From positions 1 to 36,493 of the IMG/VR virus record IMGVR_UViG_2563366937_000005: 36,493 bases of DNA; one strand, given 5' to 3'. The DNA is from a virus. Its lineage: Duplodnaviria; Heunggongvirae; Uroviricota; Caudoviricetes. Under the pieces are notes generated by a model that searched no databases, had not been told where the DNA came from, and was given only the letters and a program-made list of their open reading frames with translations. Of this stretch, positions 6,459 to 20,732 are shown piece by piece. The first letter of the stretch is position 1, and each line of letters begins with the position of its first letter. A program made the position numbers and the translations under genes.

Positions 6459-6561
6459 AAGAGCTGGTGGTCATAAACCGGCTAACCCAAGACCTCCACA
6501 ACCAGTTGGGCCAAAGCCTAAAGCTTGATTGTTGATGGATACCCAGATTGTTAAAGAGCGA

Positions 6562-6586
6562 AGCGTCCTGTAGGGCGCTTTTTTGT
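6562..6586 (+). terminator. Rho-independent terminator downstream of the 157-aa membrane protein gene
   Basis: Stem agcgtcc/gggcgct (7 bp, one G-U pair), loop tgta, then a T6 tract. Confidence 0.55.
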
Positions 6587-6800
6587 TGCTAACGAATCAT
6601 CCTGGACTTCATATGCCCCAGGCGGCTACTTAGTGGGCGTCCTGCCTGTTCATTTTTGACATTTACTGACCGCTTACGACACAGGCACCATGTTGCAACC
6701 AGATTTTGTTGTAATCCTGTAGTTGGTCTGGAACAAAAGATAAAATTAAATTGCGAGGCATGCAAGTAATATTTGCGGGATTTGCAAAATGATGGAGGGA

Positions 6801-12746: not shown

Positions 12747-12763
12747 TTTTGTGGAGAAAGTTG

Positions 12764-13108
12764 ATGCGTGATATGTATGAAGTTTTAGACCGCTGGGGAG
12801 CGTGGGCTGCAGCAGATAACAGTGGTGTGGACTGGCAGCCGATAGCAGCAGGCTTTAAGGGGCTTTTACCTCATGGTAAAAAAATACGCCTTCAGTGTGA
12901 TGATGATGAAGGCATCATGATAGACGGCTGTGTTGCCCGCTTGTGTAAGTATAAACCAGACGAATATGAGCTGATCATTGCTCACTTCGTTATAGGTATT
13001 TCACTGCGTTCTATTGCGAAGAGACGCAGATGCTCAGATGGAACAATCCGGAAGCAATTGCAGACTGCGTTAGGTTTCATTAATGGGGTTATGTACATGC
13101 TCAAGTAA
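12764..13108 (+). CDS. Late-gene antiterminator Q (QuuD-like)
   Basis: Start at ATG 12764 (GGAG plus 7-nt spacer); MRDMYEVLDRWGAWAA...IAAGFKGL...CDDDEGIMIDGCVARL...CSDGTIRKQLQTALGFINGVM parallels DLP12 QuuD (VLERWGAWAA...IAAGFKGL...CCDDDAMIICGCMARL...CSDGYIGKRLQKAEGIIEGM, from memory). Confidence 0.75.
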   Translation: MRDMYEVLDRWGAWAAADNSGVDWQPIAAGFKGLLPHGKKIRLQCDDDEGIMIDGCVARLCKYKPDEYELIIAHFVIGISLRSIAKRRRCSDGTIRKQLQTALGFINGVMYMLK

Positions 13109-14327
13109 TATTTGGCATTAATTTAAATAAAATACCGATGATGCCTATGAATGTAGGCATCCATGCTAGTGATAATAAACTGTCAAGCACCTTATGACAA
13201 AAATCCTCATTGTCATTTAATTTTTTAATAGCCTCTTCTAAGCTCTCTTTAAGATCGCTGGTGTCATCCTTTATTCTATATCTTAATTGTCCAAAAAGTA
13301 TTTCTTTAGAGTGTGAAATACGAGCGAGTTGTTTTTTTTGTGACACAATCATTGCAGATGTTATTATTGCTGTGATAATCAATCCAATTAAAGCAATAAT
13401 CCAATCAGTTTTTGTTGTTAATTTGAAAATAGCAATTGAACCAGCTAGTGAAATAGGTATTGCAAGAGCTTTGTTAGAAATTTCTGAAATTATTTTTGAC
13501 AGTTTTTCTGAGTAATCGAGTTCAGCATCAACAACTTCTTTCCTTGCTTTATGAAAAGAAAATGCCGACATATAAGCAGCTAAGTTGTTCGTATAAAGTT
13601 CGCATATGAAATCCCACTTGTTAATTAACTCGACAAAGGAATTTCCATTTTTATTAACATACTCAATAACTGTGTTTCTGAAAGTGTTAATCTTTTCAAT
13701 GTGATGGGCATCAGTAGTAGCTTCACTACTTACTAATGTTTTAACTAACTGAGTATTTACTGTTTTATCATTAAAAATTTCTTCTGTAATATTTGTTTCA
13801 ATTACAGCAGAAGAAGATTTAGACTCTGAGTTTAAAATAAAGACTAAACGATAAAATGTACCTTTGCTATCTTTTTTTATATCATGGAAATGAGCAAGCA
13901 TGGAAAGAGCATTGATTAGCTCACAAATGTCCTCAATTTTTTGGATATAAGAAGGTTTTGGTGTTTCTAATGAATAGAAATCATCCTCTATAATATAGAA
14001 ATACTCTGGCATTATGCCTTTCTTGAGCGTGTTTATTTTTACAAACTCGTTTTTATTTTTATAAAAACGATTCGCACTTCCTTGTGAAATTTTAAACGAG
14101 TATGTAAGAAAATTTCCCTTTTCAGGAAAGTCTTCATAATCATAAATTAAATGACCATCCACCTCTATTTCGTCAGCTGTACCAGCTTGAAAAGTAGGGT
14201 TCAAAATTCTTTTGAACAATGATTTTACGTCTGCATTATAAGCTATACGCGCAGAAAACTTAGCCCCGTCAAAATGAGGATAGCTTGATAATCTATACAG
14301 ATTAACTATTATACTAAAATCATTCAT
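13101..14327 (-). CDS. Hypothetical 408-aa protein with two C-terminal transmembrane helices (second gene of the AT-rich cassette; candidate membrane effector)
   Basis: ATG at 14327 overlaps the upstream gene stop (ATGA); about 285-aa soluble N-terminal region with no motif I recognise; hydrophobic helices LAIPISLAGSIAIFKL...WIIALIGLIITAIITSAMIV and LLSLAWMPTFIGIIGILFKLM; 3' end overlaps the convergent Q stop by 8 nt; strongly AT-rich. Confidence 0.6.
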   Translation of the reverse strand: MNDFSIIVNLYRLSSYPHFDGAKFSARIAYNADVKSLFKRILNPTFQAGTADEIEVDGHLIYDYEDFPEKGNFLTYSFKISQGSANRFYKNKNEFVKINTLKKGIMPEYFYIIEDDFYSLETPKPSYIQKIEDICELINALSMLAHFHDIKKDSKGTFYRLVFILNSESKSSSAVIETNITEEIFNDKTVNTQLVKTLVSSEATTDAHHIEKINTFRNTVIEYVNKNGNSFVELINKWDFICELYTNNLAAYMSAFSFHKARKEVVDAELDYSEKLSKIISEISNKALAIPISLAGSIAIFKLTTKTDWIIALIGLIITAIITSAMIVSQKKQLARISHSKEILFGQLRYRIKDDTSDLKESLEEAIKKLNDNEDFCHKVLDSLLSLAWMPTFIGIIGILFKLMPNIT

Positions 14328-15472
14328 TCTTTATCTTCTTCATTACTCGGGTTATCAGTTTCTTTCAACGCTCTTCTTATCTTAGTTAATGCTTCAACAG
14401 GCAAATTATTAAATGTTAGGCTTTGGTTTTCGTCATCATAATATATTTTAGCATCAGTTGTGACACCGAGTAAATCCTTGTCGAAGTGAAAGCTCAATGA
14501 TGGGGTTTTATATATCACATTGCGGATTTTATCTAAGGAGTTTTTATTGATTACGAACTCTGATGGGATTCTGACTTCCTCACTATTGAGGTGTTTCATT
14601 AATTTATCAACAAGTTCTGTTTTTTCTTCCTCTTTTAAATCGGACATATGGCCTGAAGCAAGCGATTCGATATCAGAAAGCCTTGCAGAGTGCTCGTTGT
14701 CAAATTGCTTTTCTAAGTATTTGATAACATCATTTCTAAATGACTCTGCTTGATTTTTTAAAAGAGGTTCTTTCTTAAAGAAACGCCTTATTTCATCTGG
14801 TAACTTACGGGTTGCACCTGCTGAAGCAATCCCCTTGTCACATCCTAATGCTGCTATAAAATATGCTGCCGCTGACTGTCCCGTAGTTTTGCTTATAAAG
14901 CTTAGATAACTTAAGTCTGTTTTTTTTAAGTCATCTGCTTTTTGGTATTCTTCATAATATCTGAAATTTATTTTTGCTGCTTGGTTAATATTGCCAAGTT
15001 CTAAGTGAATCATTTCCTCTGGCTCTAAATTTTCACTAATAGTTACGCCATTAGTTTTTTTGATCATTGTAACCAATAGATAACGGAAACCAGATAAAAT
15101 ATAATCAGTAAAAACAACATATCCTCCAGAAGCCCAAATCTGCTCTTGAGCAGATTTATACATTTGTTTCATAACTTCCTTCGATAATTCAATGAAATCA
15201 CTTGAAACAGATTGTTGAACTAAAGAGTATTTATGAAATAGTTCTGGTATAGGGCCTTGCTTTGTTTTATTTTTAATAAAAACACCATAATGCGCTGAGT
15301 TCCCTTTTGAACCATACAAATCAATAACACCGTCTACTAATTTTTTTACTATATCATTTGTTTTATCTAGTTCTGTATCACGAAGATTGTATGGTTTGGA
15401 GTGATCGAAGTCTTTATTAGATTCTTTTAAGAGCTCATGAACGATTACGTGGCGTATGCTTACTTTGCTCAT
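14324..15472 (-). CDS. NdpA/YejK-like nucleoid-associated protein homologue (NA37 family) (first gene of the AT-rich cassette)
   Basis: Start probably at the second ATG ([14 protein letters not shown], compare YejK MSLDINQIALHQL); the track ORF begins 18 nt upstream at 15490. Similarity to YejK along the whole length, e.g. [22 protein letters not shown] vs [36 protein letters not shown] vs [32 protein letters not shown] vs RYLTFLKGRVGRKVADFF, C-terminal [18 protein letters not shown] vs LTIKGTPPNLRDQLQRR (YejK from memory). Confidence 0.6.
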   Translation of the reverse strand: [382 protein letters not shown]

Positions 15473-15506
15473 TTTTTTGGTCAATTCCATGCGGTTAAGC
15501 TAACAA

Positions 15507-15556
15507 TTGTAAAGAGCATAATAAATTACTAACGCGTACGCAAAAACTATCATAAT
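15507..15556 (+). promoter_or_regulatory. Candidate late promoter (P_R'-like) upstream of the lysis cassette; the same interval probably also holds the divergent promoter of the minus-strand cassette
   Basis: -35-like TTACTA (15526-15531), 16-nt spacer, -10-like TATCAT (15548-15553) / CATAAT (15551-15556); followed about 35 nt downstream by an intrinsic terminator hairpin. Hexamer assignment is tentative. Confidence 0.3.
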
Positions 15557-15588
15557 CTGTTAAGAGTGGTTACTTCGCCACACAGCTT

Positions 15589-15620
15589 AAACCCGCGTCG
15601 AGCGGGTTTTGTCGTTTCTG
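15589..15620 (+). terminator. tR'-like intrinsic terminator between the candidate late promoter and the holin gene (expected target of Q antitermination)
   Basis: Stem aaacccgc/gcgggttt with 5-nt loop gtcga, followed by a TGTCGTTTCT U-rich tract. Confidence 0.4.
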
Positions 15621-15761
15621 GGGCTGGGGATTCGTTGGTTCTGGCCTATTCCGCAGTTATCCATTGGTTCGGCTTCTTTGACGTTTCCGCTTCTGATTTG
15701 CGGTACATGATGTTCCCTCAATTTGCACCTGCTGTATCAGCGAGGTGAGAGATAACTACAA

Positions 15762-16088
15762 ATGCCTCATAACCCAAATACCTGGTTGGAGTTGGTCCAG
15801 AGCTGGTGGCGTGGAGACACACCGTTGGGCGCAGTGATTATGTCGATTGTTATGGCTGGCTTGCGCATTGCATATTTTGGCGGTGGTGGGGGCTGGAAAC
15901 GAAAAACGCTCGAGATTTTGCTCTGTGGTGCTCTGACGCTGACTTTTGCATCCGCTCTTGAGTATGTCGGATGGCCTAAATCTCTTTCTGTTGCCATTGG
16001 TGGTGGCGTTGGGTTGATCGGTGTCGATGCTATTCGTGGGGCTGCAATGAGAGTAATCGGTAATAAGTTTGGTGGTTCTAAGGAGTAA
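15762..16088 (+). CDS. Holin (lambda S-like class I topology)
   Basis: 108 aa, three hydrophobic segments, Gly-rich turn (YFGGGGGWKRK), charged C-terminus; immediately upstream of the endolysin. Confidence 0.6.
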   Translation: MPHNPNTWLELVQSWWRGDTPLGAVIMSIVMAGLRIAYFGGGGGWKRKTLEILLCGALTLTFASALEYVGWPKSLSVAIGGGVGLIGVDAIRGAAMRVIGNKFGGSKE

Positions 16089-16091
16089 TTT

Positions 16092-16568
16092 ATGCAGGTG
16101 CTAAATCCCCAGCGTAAAGCTTTCCTTGATATGGTGGCTTGGTCAGAAGGAACGGATAACGGACGACAACCGACACGTAATCACGGTTATGATGTTATTG
16201 TTGGCGGCGAACTGTTTACTGATTACTCTGATCACCCTCGCAAACTTGTCACGTTAAACCCCAAACTCAAATCAACAGCCGCCGGACGTTATCAGCTTCT
16301 TTCACGCTGGTGGGATGCTTACCGTAAACAGCTTGGTTTGAAAGACTTCTCCCCCAAAAGCCAGGACGCAGTGGCATTGCAGCAGATTAAAGAGCGTGGC
16401 GCTTTACCGATGATTGATCGCGGTGATATCCGTCAGGCTATCGATCGTTGCAGCAATATCTGGGCGTCGTTACCTGGTGCAGGTTACGGTCAGTATGAAC
16501 ATAAAATCGGTGACCTGATTTCCCGGTTTAAAGAGGCTGGTGGGGTGGTAAATGAAGTTGAGCTATAA
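16092..16568 (+). CDS. R: Endolysin, lambda R-type lytic transglycosylase
   Basis: 158 aa; near-identical over long stretches to lambda R as I recall it (NQRKAFLDMLAWSEGTDNGRQKTRNHGYDVIVGGELFTDYSDHPRKLVTLNPKLKSTGAGRYQLLSRWWDAYRKQLGLKDFSPKSQDAVALQQIKERGALPMIDRGDIRQAIDRCSNIWASLPGAGYGQ). Confidence 0.9.
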   Translation: MQVLNPQRKAFLDMVAWSEGTDNGRQPTRNHGYDVIVGGELFTDYSDHPRKLVTLNPKLKSTAAGRYQLLSRWWDAYRKQLGLKDFSPKSQDAVALQQIKERGALPMIDRGDIRQAIDRCSNIWASLPGAGYGQYEHKIGDLISRFKEAGGVVNEVEL

Positions 16569-16944
16569 GCTGGTTATCGCTGCATTCTTCTTTACTGTCA
16601 TCGGTTCTTTCATCTGGTCTGCCAACCACTACTACAGCAAATATCAGCACGAAAAGAAACGTGCTGATGAGGCTGTACAAAATGTTGAATCTGCAACAGC
16701 CATTACCCGTAACGTCCTGCAATCACTGCAAATCGTCAATACAGTTATAGAGGTTAACCAGCATGCAAAACAGCAGATCGCACTGGAGTCACAGAGAACC
16801 CAGGAAGATATCAAAGTGGCTGTTGCGGATGATGATTGTGCTTCACGTCCTGTGCCTGCTGCCGCTGCTGACCGGTTGCGGAAATTCGCGAACGGTTTAC
16901 GTGAGCGCTCCGGTGGCACCACTGCCAGCCAGCCTGACTTCTGA
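16552..16944 (+). CDS. Rz-like inner-membrane spanin (i-spanin)
   Basis: 130 aa; N-terminal TM helix (LVIAAFFFTVIGSFIWS), then coiled-coil-like region; start overlaps the endolysin end. Confidence 0.6.
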   Translation: MKLSYKLVIAAFFFTVIGSFIWSANHYYSKYQHEKKRADEAVQNVESATAITRNVLQSLQIVNTVIEVNQHAKQQIALESQRTQEDIKVAVADDDCASRPVPAAAADRLRKFANGLRERSGGTTASQPDF

Positions 16945-17101
16945 TACTCCTGTACCGTTTATACCCAATCCGCTGACGTATGGTACCAGTCTGGAGTTGA
17001 ATGTTGCTCTATTGTCAGCCTTGGGACAATGTAATTTTGATAAAACTGGAATCAGAAAGATTGAATCACGGCGCGCTATTTTGCATTCGAAAGACAAATA
17101 G
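16829..17101 (+). CDS. Rz1-like outer-membrane lipoprotein spanin (o-spanin), overlapping Rz in the +1 frame
   Basis: Lipoprotein signal peptide with lipobox (MMIVLHVLCLLPLLTG|C), Pro-rich mature region; starts inside Rz and extends past it (overlapped rather than embedded). Start codon choice uncertain. Confidence 0.45.
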   Translation: MMIVLHVLCLLPLLTGCGNSRTVYVSAPVAPLPASLTSDTPVPFIPNPLTYGTSLELNVALLSALGQCNFDKTGIRKIESRRAILHSKDK

Positions 17102-17466
17102 CTCGAGTTATATTTTTCATTATCAGTGCGAATGCGCCTAATAAAGCTGTGTATTATGATAATTTTATAAAACTTATGGGCTTAAATTCAGACGCCAGCG
17201 TTTTTATAGTGTAATGTAGCAGCTTACATAAAATATGCATCGTGATTAACTATTAGTCCAACCTTTTGGACCAATATGAAAGTGGAAGTTTGTACAAATC
17301 GTTTGTAGATGATTAAACATGTGTCTAGTAGAGCTAGTCATGAACAGGTTTATTACGTATCATTTTGTTTAGATTATCGAGAGTACAACTAGTAGAGCAG
17401 CTAATCTTTAGATAGTGCCAGTGATGTTCACTTACGATAAACTAACCTTTTCATTCAGTGGAGGTT

Positions 17467-17904
17467 ATGATGTGGCATACATTACTTAACTGGCCTTGGG
17501 GAACTGTGTGGTCAGCTGTATCGGCTTTAGGTTCAATTGTAACTGTTACATTAGGTTTTTGGGCAATGAATGTTTGGCGGCGACAGGAGGCTCTGAAGGC
17601 CAAAATGGCTCTGAAAATGGCAGTGGCTGATTATTCAAATGCATTATCACAGCTACCTTTATCTCTTAGTCGTAATGTTCGTATTGAAAAAAGGGCCGAG
17701 CTACGAGAGTTAAGCCATAAATTAAATGCTATTAATAATGCTTTTTTGATATGCGAACATATGTTGGAAAAATACCCACGTGTAAACAGCGGTTGTCGTT
17801 CTTTATCTGTTGCCCACAAAGAATATATTAGAATGAGAGATAATAGTATTCAGGCGAAATATATTTGTCATAATATTCTTTCAGAACAGTTTGTATTCAA
17901 ATGA
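17467..17904 (+). CDS. Hypothetical single-pass membrane protein (about 145 aa) in an AT-rich moron between the lysis and packaging modules
   Basis: GGAGG directly upstream of tandem ATGs (the track ORF starts at GTG 17458); N-terminal TM helix (WGTVWSAVSALGSIVTVTLGFWAM); preceded by a 356-bp AT-rich non-coding region. Confidence 0.45.
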   Translation: MMWHTLLNWPWGTVWSAVSALGSIVTVTLGFWAMNVWRRQEALKAKMALKMAVADYSNALSQLPLSLSRNVRIEKRAELRELSHKLNAINNAFLICEHMLEKYPRVNSGCRSLSVAHKEYIRMRDNSIQAKYICHNILSEQFVFK

Positions 17905-18031
17905 AAATGAACGATTGGTATTTACTTGCCGTTTATTCATTGGATTGAAAAGTCTATTTAGCAAACCGTGTTAAAGCGGTTTCTGATTGCAGTTATGGTT
18001 AGATATTTAACGAAAACTACAGGGATAATAG

Positions 18032-18382
18032 ATGCCTCCACGAACCCCAAAAGCCTGCCGCGTTCGCGGCTGCCGCCATACCACGACTGACCCATCAGGC
18101 TACTGCGAAAGCCACAAAAGCGAAGGCTGGAAGCAATACAAGTCTGGCCAGTCCCGTCATCAGCGCGGTTATGGTTCGAAGTGGGACGTTATCCGCGCGC
18201 GTGTGCTGAAGCGTGACAAAGGCCTGTGCCAGTTGTGCCTGCGTGCCGGTGTGGTGCGCGAGGCGAAAACCGTTGACCACATCATCCCTAAAGCGCATGG
18301 CGGCACCGATGCAGACAGTAACCTACAGAGTCTGTGCTGGCCGTGTCATAAGGCGAAGACGGCCCGTGAACGGATTAAGTAA
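18032..18382 (+). CDS. HNH endonuclease (terminase-associated, HK97 gp74-like)
   Basis: 116 aa; N-terminal Cys cluster (CRVRGCRH...YCESH) and HNH motif (DHIIPKAHGGTDADSNLQSLCWPCH); immediately upstream of the terminase small subunit. Confidence 0.8.
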   Translation: MPPRTPKACRVRGCRHTTTDPSGYCESHKSEGWKQYKSGQSRHQRGYGSKWDVIRARVLKRDKGLCQLCLRAGVVREAKTVDHIIPKAHGGTDADSNLQSLCWPCHKAKTARERIK

Positions 18383-18507
18383 GAACCAGTTCCCACTGCC
18401 AGAGGGGAGGGGCGGGTCAAATCCCTGTGACCTGACGTCTTCCGGACTGCCCGCCCCATCGTTTTTTTATACCCGCGAAAAATGAAATTTAACCAGGAGT
18501 GCCGCAT
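18383..18507 (+). other. Candidate cos/packaging region (between HNH and terminase small subunit) containing an 8-bp GC stem ggggcggg/cccgcccc with 33-nt loop, then a T7 run
   Basis: Position corresponds to where cos lies in HK97-like genomes (between the HNH gene and terS); hairpin at 18411-18470 read directly; could alternatively be a terminator of the HNH gene. Confidence 0.3.
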
Positions 18508-19002
18508 ATGGCTGGAACGGCGGGGCGTTCCGGGCGTCGCCCCAAGCCAACGGCGCGCAAGGCGCTGGCCGGAAACCCCGGCAAGCGAGCCCTGAACAAA
18601 GATGAACCCGTTTTTACGCCCATCAAAGGTGTTGAGCCACCGGAGTGGTTCGCTGAAGAAGAGCTCCCTCTCGCCACGATCATGTGGCAACTGACAACCA
18701 AAGAACTCTGCGGTCAGGGCCTGCTGTGCGTGACTGACCTCGCAGTGCTTGAGCGGTGGTGCGTAGCCTATGAGTTCTGGCGACGTGCTGTGAAAAATAT
18801 TGCCAGACAGGGCAACACCATCACCGGTGCAATGGGCGGCATGGTCAAAAATCCGGAGCTGACCGCCAAAAAAGAACAGGAGTCCGAGATGAGCAGTACG
18901 GGGGCAATGCTCGGACTCGACCCCAGCAGCCGCCAGCGTCTGATTGGCCTGGCGGGGCAGAAGAAAGCCACTAACCCGTTTCTGAAAATTATCGAATCAT
19001 GA
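18508..19002 (+). CDS. Terminase small subunit (P27-family-like)
   Basis: Start at ATG 18508 ([14 protein letters not shown]...), with AGGAG upstream; ATGA-coupled to the terminase large subunit. Confidence 0.7.
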
Positions 19003-20732
19003 GCCGGAAATCTTACCCCAACGTAAATGCTGCCAATCAGTATGCCCGGGATGTCGTGCGCGGAAAGATTGTGGCCTGCCAGTTTGTGATTCAGGCCTGC
19101 CAGCGCCATCTTGATGACCTGATGGCGGAAAAAAGTAAGTCGTTTCGTTACCGCTTCGACAAGGACCTGGCTGAACGGGCCGCCAAATTTATTCAGCTGT
19201 TGCCGCACACCAAGGGTGAGTGGGCATTCAAGAGGATGCCCATCACGCTGGAGCCGTGGCAGCTCTTTGTGATCTGCTGTGCGTTTGGCTGGGTCAATAA
19301 AGGCACCCGGCTGCGCCGCTTCCGGGAGGTGTATACCGAAATCCCCCGTAAGAACGGCAAATCAGCAATCTCTGCCGGTGTCGCCCTGTATTGTTTTGCC
19401 TGTGATAACGAGTTCGGCGCGGAAGTGTATTCCGGTGCCACGACGGAGAAACAGGCATGGGAAGTCTTTCGTCCGGCAAGACTGATGTGTAAACGCACAC
19501 CCATGCTGACGGAAGCGTTCGGGATTGAGGTTAACGCCTCAAACATGAATCGTCCGGAGGATGGCGCGCGGTTTGAACCGCTGATCGGTAACCCCGGTGA
19601 TGGTTCATCACCCCACTGTGCGGTGGTGGATGAATATCACGAGCACGCCACCGATGCGCTTTACACCACGATGCTTACCGGGATGGGGGCGCGACGTCAG
19701 CCACTGATGTGGGCCATTACTACTGCCGGGTACAACATTGAGGGGCCGTGCTACGACAAGCGACGGGAAGTTATCGAGATGCTCAACGGGTCGGTACCCA
19801 ACGATGAACTGTTCGGGATCATCTATACCGTTGACGAAGGCGATGACTGGACCGACCCGCAGGTGCTGGAAAAAGCTAACCCGAATATTGGCGTGTCGGT
19901 TTATCGCGAATTTTTGTTAAGTCAGCAGCAGCGTGCGAAAAATAACGCCCGTCTGGCAAACGTCTTTAAAACAAAACACCTCAATATCTGGGTGTCGGCG
20001 CGTTCGGCGTATTTCAACCTGGTGAGCTGGCAGAGCTGCGAGGATAAATCACTGACCCTTGAGCAGTTCGAGGGGCAGCCGTGCATTCTGGCCTTTGACC
20101 TGGCGCGTAAGCTGGATATGAACAGCATGGCGCGACTTTATACCCGCGAGATTGACGGTAAAACGCATTACTACAGTGTGGCCCCGCGTTTCTGGGTACC
20201 GTATGACACGGTGTACAGCGTCGAGAAAAATGAAGATCGACGGACAGCCGAACGCTTTCAGAAATGGGTGGAAATGGGCGTTCTGACCGTTACCGATGGT
20301 GCGGAGGTGGATTATCGCTACATCCTCGAGGAGGCCAAAGCGGCGAACAAAATCAGCCCGGTCAGTGAGTCACCCATCGACCCCTTCGGGGCGACCGGGT
20401 TGTCACATGACCTTGCTGATGAAGACCTGAACCCCATCACTATCATTCAGAACTACACCAACATGTCCGACCCGATGAAAGAGCTGGAAGCGGCAATTGA
20501 ATCGGGGCGCTTTCATCATGATGGCAATCCCATCATGACCTGGTGTATCGGCAACGTGGTCGGCAAAACCATTCCGGGTAACGATGATGTGGTGAAGCCC
20601 GTCAAAGAGCAGGCGGAAAACAAAATCGATGGTGCAGTTGCGCTGATTATGGCGGTTGGCAGAGCCATGCTGTACGAGAAAGAAGACACGCTGTCTGACC
20701 ACATTGAGTCCTATGGGATCCGCTCGCTTTAA
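18999..20732 (+). CDS. Terminase large subunit (HK97-type Terminase_1)
   Basis: 577 aa; N-terminal ATPase region with Walker A-like [11 protein letters not shown] and C-terminal nuclease region; typical size and position. Confidence 0.9.

What the first reader, a model, noticed from the sequence alone, without database searches (positions are those of the whole stretch)
17102..17904. Second AT-rich moron: single-pass membrane protein between the lysis and packaging modules
A 356-bp very AT-rich non-coding stretch followed by an AT-rich gene for a small protein with one N-terminal TM helix interrupts the otherwise GC-balanced late region. This is the signature of an independently transcribed cargo gene (exclusion, immunity or host-modulation function).
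Basis: partly seen in the sequence, partly recalled or inferred. Interest (0 to 1): 0.45.

Follow-up and report, generated by a model that had tools for sequence, protein, structure and literature searches.

The report
Prophage cargo gene for membrane protein
An AT-rich 930-bp cassette inserted between the lysis and DNA-packaging genes of an E. coli prophage carries one optional gene for a small inner-membrane protein of an uncharacterised phage family, with a conserved RNA hairpin that hides its ribosome-binding site; it is a typical phage "moron" whose function is still unknown.

Summary
Window 17102-18031 is 35% G+C, against 51% for the window and 59% for the next gene. It holds one real gene, 17470-17904 (144 aa; the conserved start is ATG 17470, not GTG 17458).

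The cassette fills exactly the gap between the o-spanin stop and the HNH start. Related E. coli prophages have this gap empty (26 bp) or filled with unrelated genes. Only 28 of 5426 complete E. coli genomes carry this cassette.

The protein belongs to a small family, phrog_6169 (unknown function), with no Pfam, NCBIfam or PADLOC match. It has one N-terminal membrane helix, predicted N-out/C-in, and a confidently modelled four-helix bundle.

Relatives occur only in temperate enterobacterial phages, always on the late-gene strand. They lie either between lysis and terminase genes or between large terminase and portal.

Across the family, a -10-like TAnnAT hexamer is followed directly by an anti-Shine-Dalgarno arm that pairs with the ribosome-binding site. 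Most copies also have their own terminator.

The "moron" reading is supported. The promoter is probable but unmapped. Exclusion or defence is only the favoured guess. No known lysis accessory, spanin or defence family matches. Interest is moderate.

The parts
16829..17101 (+). Rz1/LysC o-spanin, the last gene of the lysis cassette; left border of the variable slot
   Evidence: Pfam LysC E=9e-15. RefSeq CDS in the identical prophage. Similarity to other prophages ends at its stop codon.
17102..18031 (+). AT-rich cargo cassette (moron), 930 bp, 35.4% G+C
   Evidence: Composition. Present as a unit in 28 of 5426 E. coli genomes. The slot is empty or otherwise filled in related prophages.
17102..17414 (.). 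Lineage-specific AT-rich non-coding leader
   Evidence: No conserved ORF. Indels of 17 and 23 nt between E. coli variants. No Rfam match. Other family members have only 70-270 nt here.
17335..17363 (+). Promoter-like site TAGTCA-17-TATCAT (9 of 12), seen in the E. coli lineage only
   Evidence: Consensus scan, but the number of sites is not above shuffles. The -10 part is kept in L032 and L090.
17415..17443 (+). Family-conserved promoter-like element: -35-like GTGCCA (17415-17420), 17-nt spacer, -10-like TAAACT (17438-17443)
   Evidence: Read from the sequence. In the alignment of 36 distinct upstream regions the hexamer is TAnnAT, with T1 invariant and A2, A5 and T6 at 90% or more. Its last base lies 26 nt before the ATG in most copies. 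Relatives have TAAAAT, TAGAAT or TACAAT.
17445..17465 (+). Hairpin pairing an anti-SD arm (17445-17452, AACCUUUUC) with the Shine-Dalgarno arm (17458-17465; GGAGG at 17460-17464)
   Evidence: 82.5% of cells are paired, against 42-64% with partners slid; 7 of 8 pairs show double changes. The SD is paired in 38 of 51 MFE folds. P(SD unpaired) is 0.04 in the window read-through model. Family median is 0.038 against 0.349 for 113 other genes of the same loci, p=1e-9.
17470..17904 (+). CDS of 144 aa, phrog_6169 family (RefSeq WP_016159276.1, 'hypothetical protein')
17497..17571 (+). Codons for the single transmembrane helix (residues ~10-34). Together with the adjoining W-R/K-Q-E/D-x-L-K-A-K motif it is the best-conserved part of the protein.
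   Evidence: Hydropathy. Segment conservation is 0.54-0.62, against 0.34-0.39 for the rest. Charge bias gives N-out/C-in.
17572..17883 (+). Codons for the predicted cytoplasmic four-helix bundle (residues 35-138)
17963..17988 (+). Decayed terminator-like hairpin: AAACCG-N8-CGGTTT followed by TTTCTGATT
   Evidence: Read. The 91%-identical relative L031 has an intact T-run and scores as a terminator. Strong terminators follow the gene in 31 of 53 distinct relatives, against 49 of 265 random windows.
18032..18382 (+). HNH endonuclease, the first packaging-module gene; right border of the slot
   Evidence: Pfam HNH E=2e-16. Similarity to other prophages resumes exactly at its ATG.

Best explanation
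Window 17102-18031 is a self-contained, horizontally acquired cargo cassette (a 'moron'). It sits in the polymorphic slot between the last lysis gene and the first packaging gene of a Q-antiterminated late operon.

It encodes one small bitopic inner-membrane protein. The protein has a short uncharged or acidic tail predicted to face the periplasm, one strongly conserved transmembrane helix, and a four-helix bundle predicted to face the cytoplasm.

The family shares a fixed control region. A sigma-70-type -10 element is followed directly by an anti-Shine-Dalgarno arm that pairs with the ribosome-binding site.

Inferred, not shown:
- The gene is transcribed from its own weak promoter in the lysogen.
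- The hairpin forms fully only on late-operon read-through RNA, because a start site at the usual distance from the -10 falls inside the anti-SD arm. It would therefore keep the protein from being over-made during lytic growth.
- The protein acts in the lysogen through membrane-helix contacts with a membrane partner. The most likely role is a prophage-borne barrier (exclusion or abortive response) to other phages.
For: Cargo status:
- Exact slot boundaries, with empty and alternative fillings in related prophages: none, YodC, a GrlR-like gene, or other hypothetical proteins.
- 28 of 5426 genomes carry the cassette, against about 1243 that carry the flanking genes.
- Foreign composition: 35% against 51-59% G+C, GC3 28% against 64%.

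Real gene: dN/dS 0.09-0.28, 66 representatives, pLDDT 94.

Position in relatives:
- Relatives at 20-70% identity always lie in temperate-phage late regions on the late strand.
- They sit next to unrelated holins, endolysins, spanins and terminases, or between TerL and portal.
- The same slots also hold Abi_alpha, Tad2-like, DUF4365, DUF488 and methyltransferase genes.

Control region:
- Conserved TAnnAT hexamer, 26 nt before the ATG.
- Hairpin with compensatory changes.
- SD accessibility median 0.038 against 0.349 for neighbouring genes, p=1e-9.
- Modelled accessibility rises from a median of 0.02 to 0.36-0.41 if transcription starts 7-10 nt after the hexamer.
- Own terminators in 31 of 53 distinct downstream regions.
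- The Q antiterminator at 12749-13108 implies late read-through across the cassette.

Topology and conservation:
- N-tails carry K+R 17 against D+E 54. The 15 residues after the helix carry K+R 208 against D+E 77.
- The membrane helix and the juxtamembrane motif are the most conserved segments.
Against: - There are no expression data of any kind.
- In this window the -10 is only 4 of 6 (TAAACT), the -35 is 4 of 6, and the consensus scan did not flag the site.
- The terminator is decayed here.
- The transcription start is unknown. A start further upstream (for example from 17335-17363, or from the GATAAT seen in some relatives) would place the hairpin on the gene's own mRNA too.
- The compared sequences are related, so the statistics overstate independence.
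- Nothing links the protein to defence except its location and the company it keeps. There is no PADLOC, Pfam or NCBIfam hit and no specific fold match.
- A cytoplasmic bundle with only about 9 periplasmic residues is not the usual build of proteins that block DNA entry.
- Topology is predicted, not measured.
Confidence: 0.5

Rival explanations
1. It is a late-expressed accessory of the phage's own lytic programme. For example, it could be a membrane-anchored modulator of lysis timing (antiholin-like), or a factor acting at the membrane during packaging. It would be translated at a low level from the late polycistronic RNA because of the hairpin.
For: It is always on the late-gene strand and always beside lysis or terminase genes. 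No terminator separates it from Rz1 in the window. It is a single-pass membrane protein with a conserved membrane helix, which could pair with holin helices. A dampened SD suits a dose-sensitive regulator.
Against: It is present in only 28 of the roughly 1243 E. coli genomes that share the same lysis-HNH junction. It occurs with at least four unrelated holin families, and in CobraSix-like phages it lies between TerL and portal, away from lysis genes. It has foreign composition. Relatives have their own -10 and terminators. There is no sequence relation to Mu gp25, to Rz, or to any PHROG lysis family.
Confidence: 0.15
2. It is a lysogenic-conversion gene that changes host membrane physiology or signalling rather than phage susceptibility. 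For example, it could bind a host inner-membrane sensor, transporter or division protein.
For: The moron architecture and AT-rich foreign DNA are the same as for the best explanation. The conserved membrane helix and juxtamembrane motif suggest a specific membrane partner. The fold resembles helical-bundle interaction and sensor modules only in a generic way. Other occupants of the same E. coli slot include a GrlR-like regulator and YodC, which are not obvious defence genes.
Against: No homology to any characterised small membrane regulator was found. The family is confined to phage genomes in every context examined. Several neighbours in the slot are defence or anti-defence genes.
Confidence: 0.25
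3. In this particular prophage the cassette is an inactive passenger: the gene is inherited but no longer usefully expressed.
For: The window copy has a weakened -10 (TAAACT where the 91% relative has TAAAAT), G-U pairs in the hairpin, and a broken terminator T-run. A 33% G+C leader is the kind of DNA that H-NS silences in E. coli (general knowledge, not tested here).
Against: The ORF is intact and nearly identical in 28 genomes from varied hosts. dN/dS against the close variant L091 is 0.18. The hairpin pairing is retained through G-U pairs.
Confidence: 0.1

Closest known systems
Classical lambdoid morons: lambda bor (downstream of Rz) and HK97 gp15 (own knowledge: Juhala et al. 2000; Cumby et al. 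2012). The HK97 record itself labels gp15 'moron product' with a putative terminator.
   Same: It is an optional single gene placed between two conserved late genes. Its base composition differs from its surroundings. It has a promoter-like element in front, and in most relatives a terminator behind. The slot after the spanin genes is the one lambda bor occupies.
   Different: There is no sequence relation: hhalign against HK97 gp15 gives probability 0.3%. From my own knowledge, Bor is an outer-membrane lipoprotein read from the opposite strand. This gene is always co-oriented with the late genes and encodes an inner-membrane protein. Expression in the lysogen is not shown here.
IS10/Tn10 protection from outside transcription by fold-back sequestration of the transposase ribosome-binding site (Davis, Simons and Kleckner 1985, as cited in PMC13181058)
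   Same: A sequence upstream of the element's own start site pairs with the ribosome-binding site. Read-through transcripts would therefore be poorly translated, while transcripts from the element's own promoter lack the inhibitory arm. This is modelled.
   Different: The context is a phage cargo gene, not a transposase. The transcription start is not mapped here, so whether the gene's own transcript escapes the hairpin is an inference.
Membrane-located superinfection-exclusion proteins (HK97 gp15, T4 Imm, P22 SieA; own knowledge)
   Same: It is a small prophage-borne inner-membrane protein encoded by a non-essential gene.
   Different: No homology was detected. Most of this protein is predicted to be cytoplasmic, with only about 9 residues outside. 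No exclusion phenotype is known.
Lysis accessories with one N-terminal membrane helix: Rz-type i-spanins and Mu gp25 (DUF2730). That gp25 is the Mu 'releasin' is from my own knowledge.
   Same: The size is similar and there is a single N-terminal membrane helix. The gene lies just after the spanin genes and before the terminase genes, as gp25 does in Mu.
   Different: hhalign probabilities are 0.5% (own Rz) and 2.7% (Mu gp25). The phage already has a complete Rz/Rz1 pair. Its endolysin is a lambda-R-type enzyme without a membrane anchor. The predicted topology is opposite to that of i-spanins.
Four-helix-bundle sensor domains of chemoreceptors and histidine kinases (Tar, NarQ/NarX, QseE)

Membership tests
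Moron (Hendrix/Juhala sense) | Gene present in some and absent from other, otherwise collinear, phage genomes, inserted between two conserved genes | tested here: met
   Homology stops at the Rz1 stop and resumes at the HNH ATG. In related prophages the slot is empty (26 bp) or holds YodC, a GrlR-like gene or other genes.
Moron (Hendrix/Juhala sense) | Nucleotide composition distinct from the flanking phage genes | tested here: met
   35.4% against 49-59% G+C; GC3 28% against 64-65%.
Moron (Hendrix/Juhala sense) | Own promoter upstream | tested here: inconclusive
   A TAnnAT hexamer is conserved at a fixed 26 nt before the ATG in 36 distinct upstream regions. The window copy is TAAACT with -35 GTGCCA, 8 of 12, below the scan threshold. 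No transcription start data exist.
Moron (Hendrix/Juhala sense) | Own factor-independent terminator downstream | tested here: inconclusive
   Present in 31 of 53 distinct relatives, against 18% of random windows. In the window only a weak hairpin at 17963-17982 with a broken T-run remains.
Moron (Hendrix/Juhala sense) | Expressed from the repressed prophage | not testable with these tools
   Needs RNA-seq, 5' RACE or a reporter in the lysogen.
phrog_6169 (PHROGs family, unknown function) | Full-length match to the family profile | tested here: met
   E=3e-57 over residues 7-148 of the 148-aa ORF. All 48 aligned relatives hit the same PHROG.
Spanin (Rz-type i-spanin) | Sequence or profile relation to Rz families, and pairing with an o-spanin lipoprotein gene | tested here: not met
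   No PHROG or Pfam spanin hit. hhalign against the phage's own Rz gives probability 0.5%. A complete Rz/Rz1 pair already lies upstream. In some relatives the gene is separated from the lysis genes by other cargo.
Mu gp25 (DUF2730); identified as the Mu 'releasin' from my own knowledge | Homology to gp25; association with a membrane-tethered (SAR) endolysin | tested here: not met
   hhalign probability 2.7% over 12 columns. The endolysin here is lambda-R-like, annotated GH104 in RefSeq, with no hydrophobic N-terminus.
Holin or antiholin | Match to a holin or antiholin family; constant pairing with one holin type | tested here: not met
   No such Pfam or PHROG hit. Relatives sit with Phage_holin_3_1, holin_2_1, and holin_8 plus holin_3_7, or far from lysis genes.
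Known anti-phage defence systems (PADLOC-DB 2.0, NCBIfam) | Profile match to a catalogued defence protein | tested here: not met
   No hit for the window protein. Among 48 relatives there were only three isolated hits with E above 0.002.
HK97 gp15-type exclusion protein | Homology to gp15 | tested here: not met
   hhalign probability 0.3%.
Read-through insulation of the IS10 type | RBS-sequestering hairpin whose 5' arm lies upstream of, or across, the element's own transcription start | tested here: inconclusive
   The hairpin is supported. The arm begins 1-2 nt after the -10 hexamer. The start site itself is not known.

The most novel reading that the evidence does not exclude
The family is a new kind of prophage-borne, membrane-anchored four-helix-bundle protein that protects the lysogen against other phages. 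Its control region is a transcript-origin switch. The anti-SD arm lies across the gene's own transcription start, so the protein is translated from the lysogenic transcript and silenced on the abundant late read-through RNA. This is the IS10-style insulation trick applied to a phage moron.
Probability: 0.2. Interest if true: 0.6.

Novelty: new member of a known kind. Interest (0 to 1): 0.4.

Why it matters
The slot between lysis and packaging genes of lambdoid prophages is shown here to be a polymorphic cargo site. In relatives the same slot also holds Abi_alpha, Tad2-like, DUF4365 and DUF488 genes. Uncharacterised single genes in such slots are good candidates for new phage-phage conflict functions.

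This family (phrog_6169) is compact at about 140 aa. It is confidently modelled, confined to temperate enterobacterial phages, and easy to test by expression and phage challenge.

The conserved arrangement of -10 hexamer, anti-SD arm and SD gives a directly testable idea for a general problem. It could explain how a cargo gene embedded, in the sense orientation, in a very strongly transcribed late operon avoids being over-translated during lytic growth. If confirmed, it would help in reading other morons.

Tried and rejected
- Pfam, NCBIfam and PADLOC scans of the protein gave nothing. PADLOC on 48 relatives gave only stray hits.
- blastn of the cassette against 50,697 phage records found no match. 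tblastn found only Enterobacter phage CobraSix at 34% identity.
- The first AlphaFold2 run, with 16 close sequences, was poor (pLDDT 55). It was redone with 48 diverse sequences.
- A profile search of PDB sequences found nothing below E=0.17.
- Rfam found nothing in 16900-18550.
- The promoter and terminator consensus scan was not enriched over shuffles.
- Repeats in the cassette were only short chance-level pairs. A palindrome at 17263-17280 looked compensatory in one relative but is broken in another.
- The link with the NA37 cassette was dismissed: it co-occurs in only one other locus, L011.
- Literature: no paper mentions the accession or the PHROG. The Gifsy defence gene gipd474 is an unrelated ATPase-domain protein.
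- The search for related loci with the full alignment failed for lack of a conserved stretch. The species-representative genome scan found only 3 loci.
- A temperature series gave no sign of an RNA thermometer. SD accessibility in the window read-through model stays at 0.02-0.06 from 20 to 45 C.

Full report
**Setting**

The window is an E. coli prophage. It is 100% identical over the tested 930-bp and 1831-bp stretches to one in strain F1267. It is integrated beside tRNA-Thr at 1369-1444, next to proA. It has a Q antiterminator at 12749-13108.

The late region reads as follows, all on the + strand:
- lambda-type holin, 15762-16088
- endolysin, 16092-16568
- Rz-like i-spanin, 16552-16944
- embedded Rz1/LysC o-spanin, 16829-17101
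- the region in question
- HNH endonuclease, 18032-18382
- P27-type small terminase, 18499-19002
- large terminase, 18999-20732

**Observation**

It is confirmed.
- The stretch from the Rz1 stop to the ORF is 33-34% G+C, the ORF is 37.5% (GC3 28%), and the 127 nt after it are 33%.
- The window as a whole is 50.9%, and HNH and TerS are 58.7%.
- Two details need correction. The conserved start is ATG 17470, which is the RefSeq call and has GGAGG 5 nt upstream, not GTG 17458. The foreign AT-rich unit runs to 18031, the base before the HNH start codon.
- The protein has one hydrophobic segment (residues ~10-34) and no other.

**It is cargo**

- The 930-bp unit occurs in 28 of 5426 complete E. coli genomes. 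Its AT-rich leader never occurs without the gene.
- The flanking Rz-to-HNH sequences match in about 1243 genomes.
- Four other prophages were aligned. Similarity ends at the Rz1 stop and resumes at the HNH ATG.
- In those prophages the slot is 26 bp and empty (L003), or holds a YodC gene on the other strand (L004), a GrlR-like gene (L005, Pfam GrlR E=4e-5), or two unrelated minus-strand genes (L006).
- This is the presence/absence polymorphism, combined with a foreign composition, that defines a moron.

**The gene is real but unnamed**

- It matches phrog_6169 (unknown function, E=3e-57) and nothing in Pfam, NCBIfam or PADLOC.
- The word-indexed search found 21 clusters, all labelled 'hypothetical', from Escherichia, Salmonella, Enterobacter and Hafnia.
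- The exhaustive profile search found 66 representatives at 50% identity among 1.8 billion proteins. All 48 that I aligned hit the same PHROG.
- dN/dS between diverged members is 0.09-0.28.
- No paper mentions the accession or the PHROG.

**Structure and topology**

- With 16 close sequences AlphaFold2 failed (pLDDT 55). With the 48-sequence alignment it gave pLDDT 94.2 and pTM 0.80.
- The model has one long helix (residues 10-61) that spans the membrane and continues into an antiparallel four-helix bundle with helices 75-101, 103-120 and 126-138.
- Foldseek against PDB and BFVD found nothing with E below 0.05. A profile search of PDB sequences found nothing.
- Charge bias across 48 members points to an N-out/C-in orientation. 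The N-tails carry 17 K+R against 54 D+E. The 15 residues after the helix carry 208 K+R against 77 D+E. This is a prediction from the positive-inside rule, not a measurement.
- The best-conserved parts are the membrane helix (W10, W14, S18, A19, A29, A32) and the juxtamembrane motif W36-x-x-Q39-E/D-x-L-K-A-K...K49.
- That conservation is unusual for a mere anchor. It suggests specific helix-helix contacts in the membrane (inference).

**Context in relatives**

I examined 5 look-ups by exact protein and 67 IMG/VR loci. In every case the gene lies in a phage late region on the late-gene strand, in one of two arrangements.
- In lambdoid phages it lies after the lysis cassette and before the small terminase or HNH. 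The modules around it are mutually unrelated: holin_2_1, holin_8 plus holin_3_7, or lambda S; GH19, GH24, GH108 or lambda-R endolysins; DUF2514 or DUF2570 spanins; Nu1/gpA, P27/TerL or P22-type packaging genes.
- In CobraSix-like siphophages it lies between large terminase and portal.

Other genes that share these slots include Abi_alpha, a Tad2-like protein, DUF4365, DUF488, methyltransferases and a GNAT.

The family therefore behaves as a mobile single-gene cassette. It is not tied to any one lysis or packaging system.

**Control region**

This is the most informative new feature.
- In 51 distinct upstream regions the DNA is unalignable beyond about 45 nt. The last stretch, however, is shared: a -10-like hexamer, then 1-2 nt later a CCUCC-like arm, a 5-9 nt loop, the GGAGG Shine-Dalgarno sequence and the start codon.
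- In an alignment of 36 of them the hexamer reads TAnnAT. T1 is invariant and A2, A5 and T6 are at 90% or more. These are the positions that matter most for sigma-70, from general knowledge.
- The last base of the hexamer is 26 nt before the ATG in most copies.
- The hairpin is paired in 82.5% of cells, against 42-64% when partners are slid. Seven of eight pairs show double changes, for example UCUCC/GGAGA, CACCUC/GAGGUG and CCCU/AGGG.
- The predicted probability that the SD is unpaired has a median of 0.038 for the family. It is 0.349 for 113 other + strand genes of the same loci (Mann-Whitney p=1e-9). The sequences are related, so this p-value is generous.
- The anti-SD arm occupies the place where a transcript from that -10 would start. 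Modelled transcripts beginning 7-10 nt after the hexamer have a much freer SD, with a median of 0.36-0.41 against 0.02 for read-through RNA.
- This resembles how IS10 shields its transposase from outside transcription (Davis et al. 1985, cited in PMC13181058).
- The start site is unmapped, so this is a hypothesis. If transcription starts further upstream, the hairpin simply damps translation of the gene's own mRNA.
- There is no sign of a thermosensor. Accessibility in the read-through model stays at 0.02-0.06 from 20 to 45 C.

Terminators: hairpins followed by a T-run occur within 160 nt downstream in 31 of 53 distinct relatives, against 49 of 265 random windows. Many are strong, at -11 to -16 kcal/mol.

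The window copy has the following elements:
- -35-like GTGCCA, 17415-17420
- -10-like TAAACT, 17438-17443. The 91% relative has TAAAAT.
- Hairpin 17445-17452 with 17458-17465, kept through two G-U pairs
- SD, 17460-17464
- ATG, 17470
- A decayed terminator at 17963-17988

The remaining roughly 310 nt of AT-rich leader is specific to the E. coli lineage. It carries indels and has no conserved ORF or Rfam match.

**What it is not**

- It is not a spanin. The phage's own Rz/Rz1 pair is complete, hhalign gives 0.5%, and in some relatives other cargo separates it from the lysis genes.
- It is not related to Mu gp25 (2.7%) or HK97 gp15 (0.3%).
- It matches no holin or antiholin family and no catalogued defence protein.

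**Interpretation**

- Shown: an optional, foreign, single-gene cassette in a polymorphic slot; a real, conserved membrane-protein family; and a conserved SD-masking hairpin next to a conserved -10-like element.
- Inferred: expression from its own promoter in the lysogen; insulation from late read-through translation; N-out/C-in topology; and action through membrane-helix contacts.
- Guessed: the role itself. From the location, the neighbours in the slot and the restriction to temperate phages, I favour a prophage-borne barrier to other phages (about 0.35-0.4). Next come host-membrane modulation (about 0.25), a lytic-cycle accessory (about 0.15) and an idle passenger (about 0.1).

**Verdict**

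The 'moron' reading is well supported for cargo status, probable for independent transcription, and open for function.

It is a new member of a known kind. Interest is moderate. It is raised somewhat by the conserved promoter and anti-SD geometry, which is cheap to test and may be general.

Noticed in passing
window 13101-15490 (minus strand), within the AT-rich island 12951-15650: A second AT-rich cargo cassette lies between Q (12749-13108) and the holin. It has a 388-aa NA37/YejK-like nucleoid-associated protein (Pfam NA37 E=2e-50). That protein also gives a partial hit, below cutoff, to NCBIfam 'nucleoid-associated anti-phage protein' DS1_1 (E=3e-28). The second gene encodes a 408-aa protein with no Pfam match and hydrophobic C-terminal segments. 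The same gene pair (70% and 51% identity) sits at the same Q-holin slot in an Enterobacter prophage, L011, which also carries a relative of the gene studied here. No other of about 88 loci has the pair.
   Followed up: partly
Q-to-holin slot in related E. coli prophages: L001 16952-18364, L005 1-310, L006 8-409, L004 1-634: The slot upstream of the holin is also polymorphic. It holds two hypothetical genes in the otherwise identical prophage of strain F1267. Other prophages have a TIGR04255-family gene, a TIR-domain gene or a DNA methyltransferase there.
   Followed up: no
L090 1746-2201 (E. coli AH65); also L031 and L032: A variant of the gene has a 7-codon tandem duplication inside the membrane helix (…SAVSALGSVVSALGSILTV…, 151 aa) and sits behind a GH19 endolysin instead of the lambda-R type. 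This shows that the cassette moves between lysis modules.
   Followed up: partly
L007 about 6560-6760 (Hafnia alvei prophage): Downstream of the relative's terminator there is an uncalled reading frame that starts MPAQIPRACRKHGC…. It resembles the start of the window's HNH endonuclease (MPPRTPKACRVRGC…). An HNH gene may therefore also follow the cassette in a phage with lambda-type Nu1/gpA terminase.
   Followed up: no
window 18383-18498: The 116-nt G+C-rich gap between HNH and the small terminase contains an inverted repeat (GGGGCGGG…CCCGCCCC) followed by a T-run. From general knowledge of HK97-like phages, this is where the cos site is expected. It was not examined.
   Followed up: no
L013 6515-7438 (Pectobacterium prophage); L016 and L017 5029-5808; L014 4203-5830: Relatives of the gene share their slot with a protein carrying Phage_gp49_66 and Tad2-like (anti-Thoeris) domains, with an Abi_alpha protein, or with a DUF4365 protein plus a 375-aa unknown. 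The lysis-terminase junction therefore looks like a hotspot for conflict genes in several phage groups.
   Followed up: partly
window 17263-17280: The palindrome GTCCAA-CCTT-TTGGAC in the AT-rich leader shows a compensatory change in L032 and L090 (GCCCAA…TTGGGC) but is broken in L091. Its status is unclear.
   Followed up: partly
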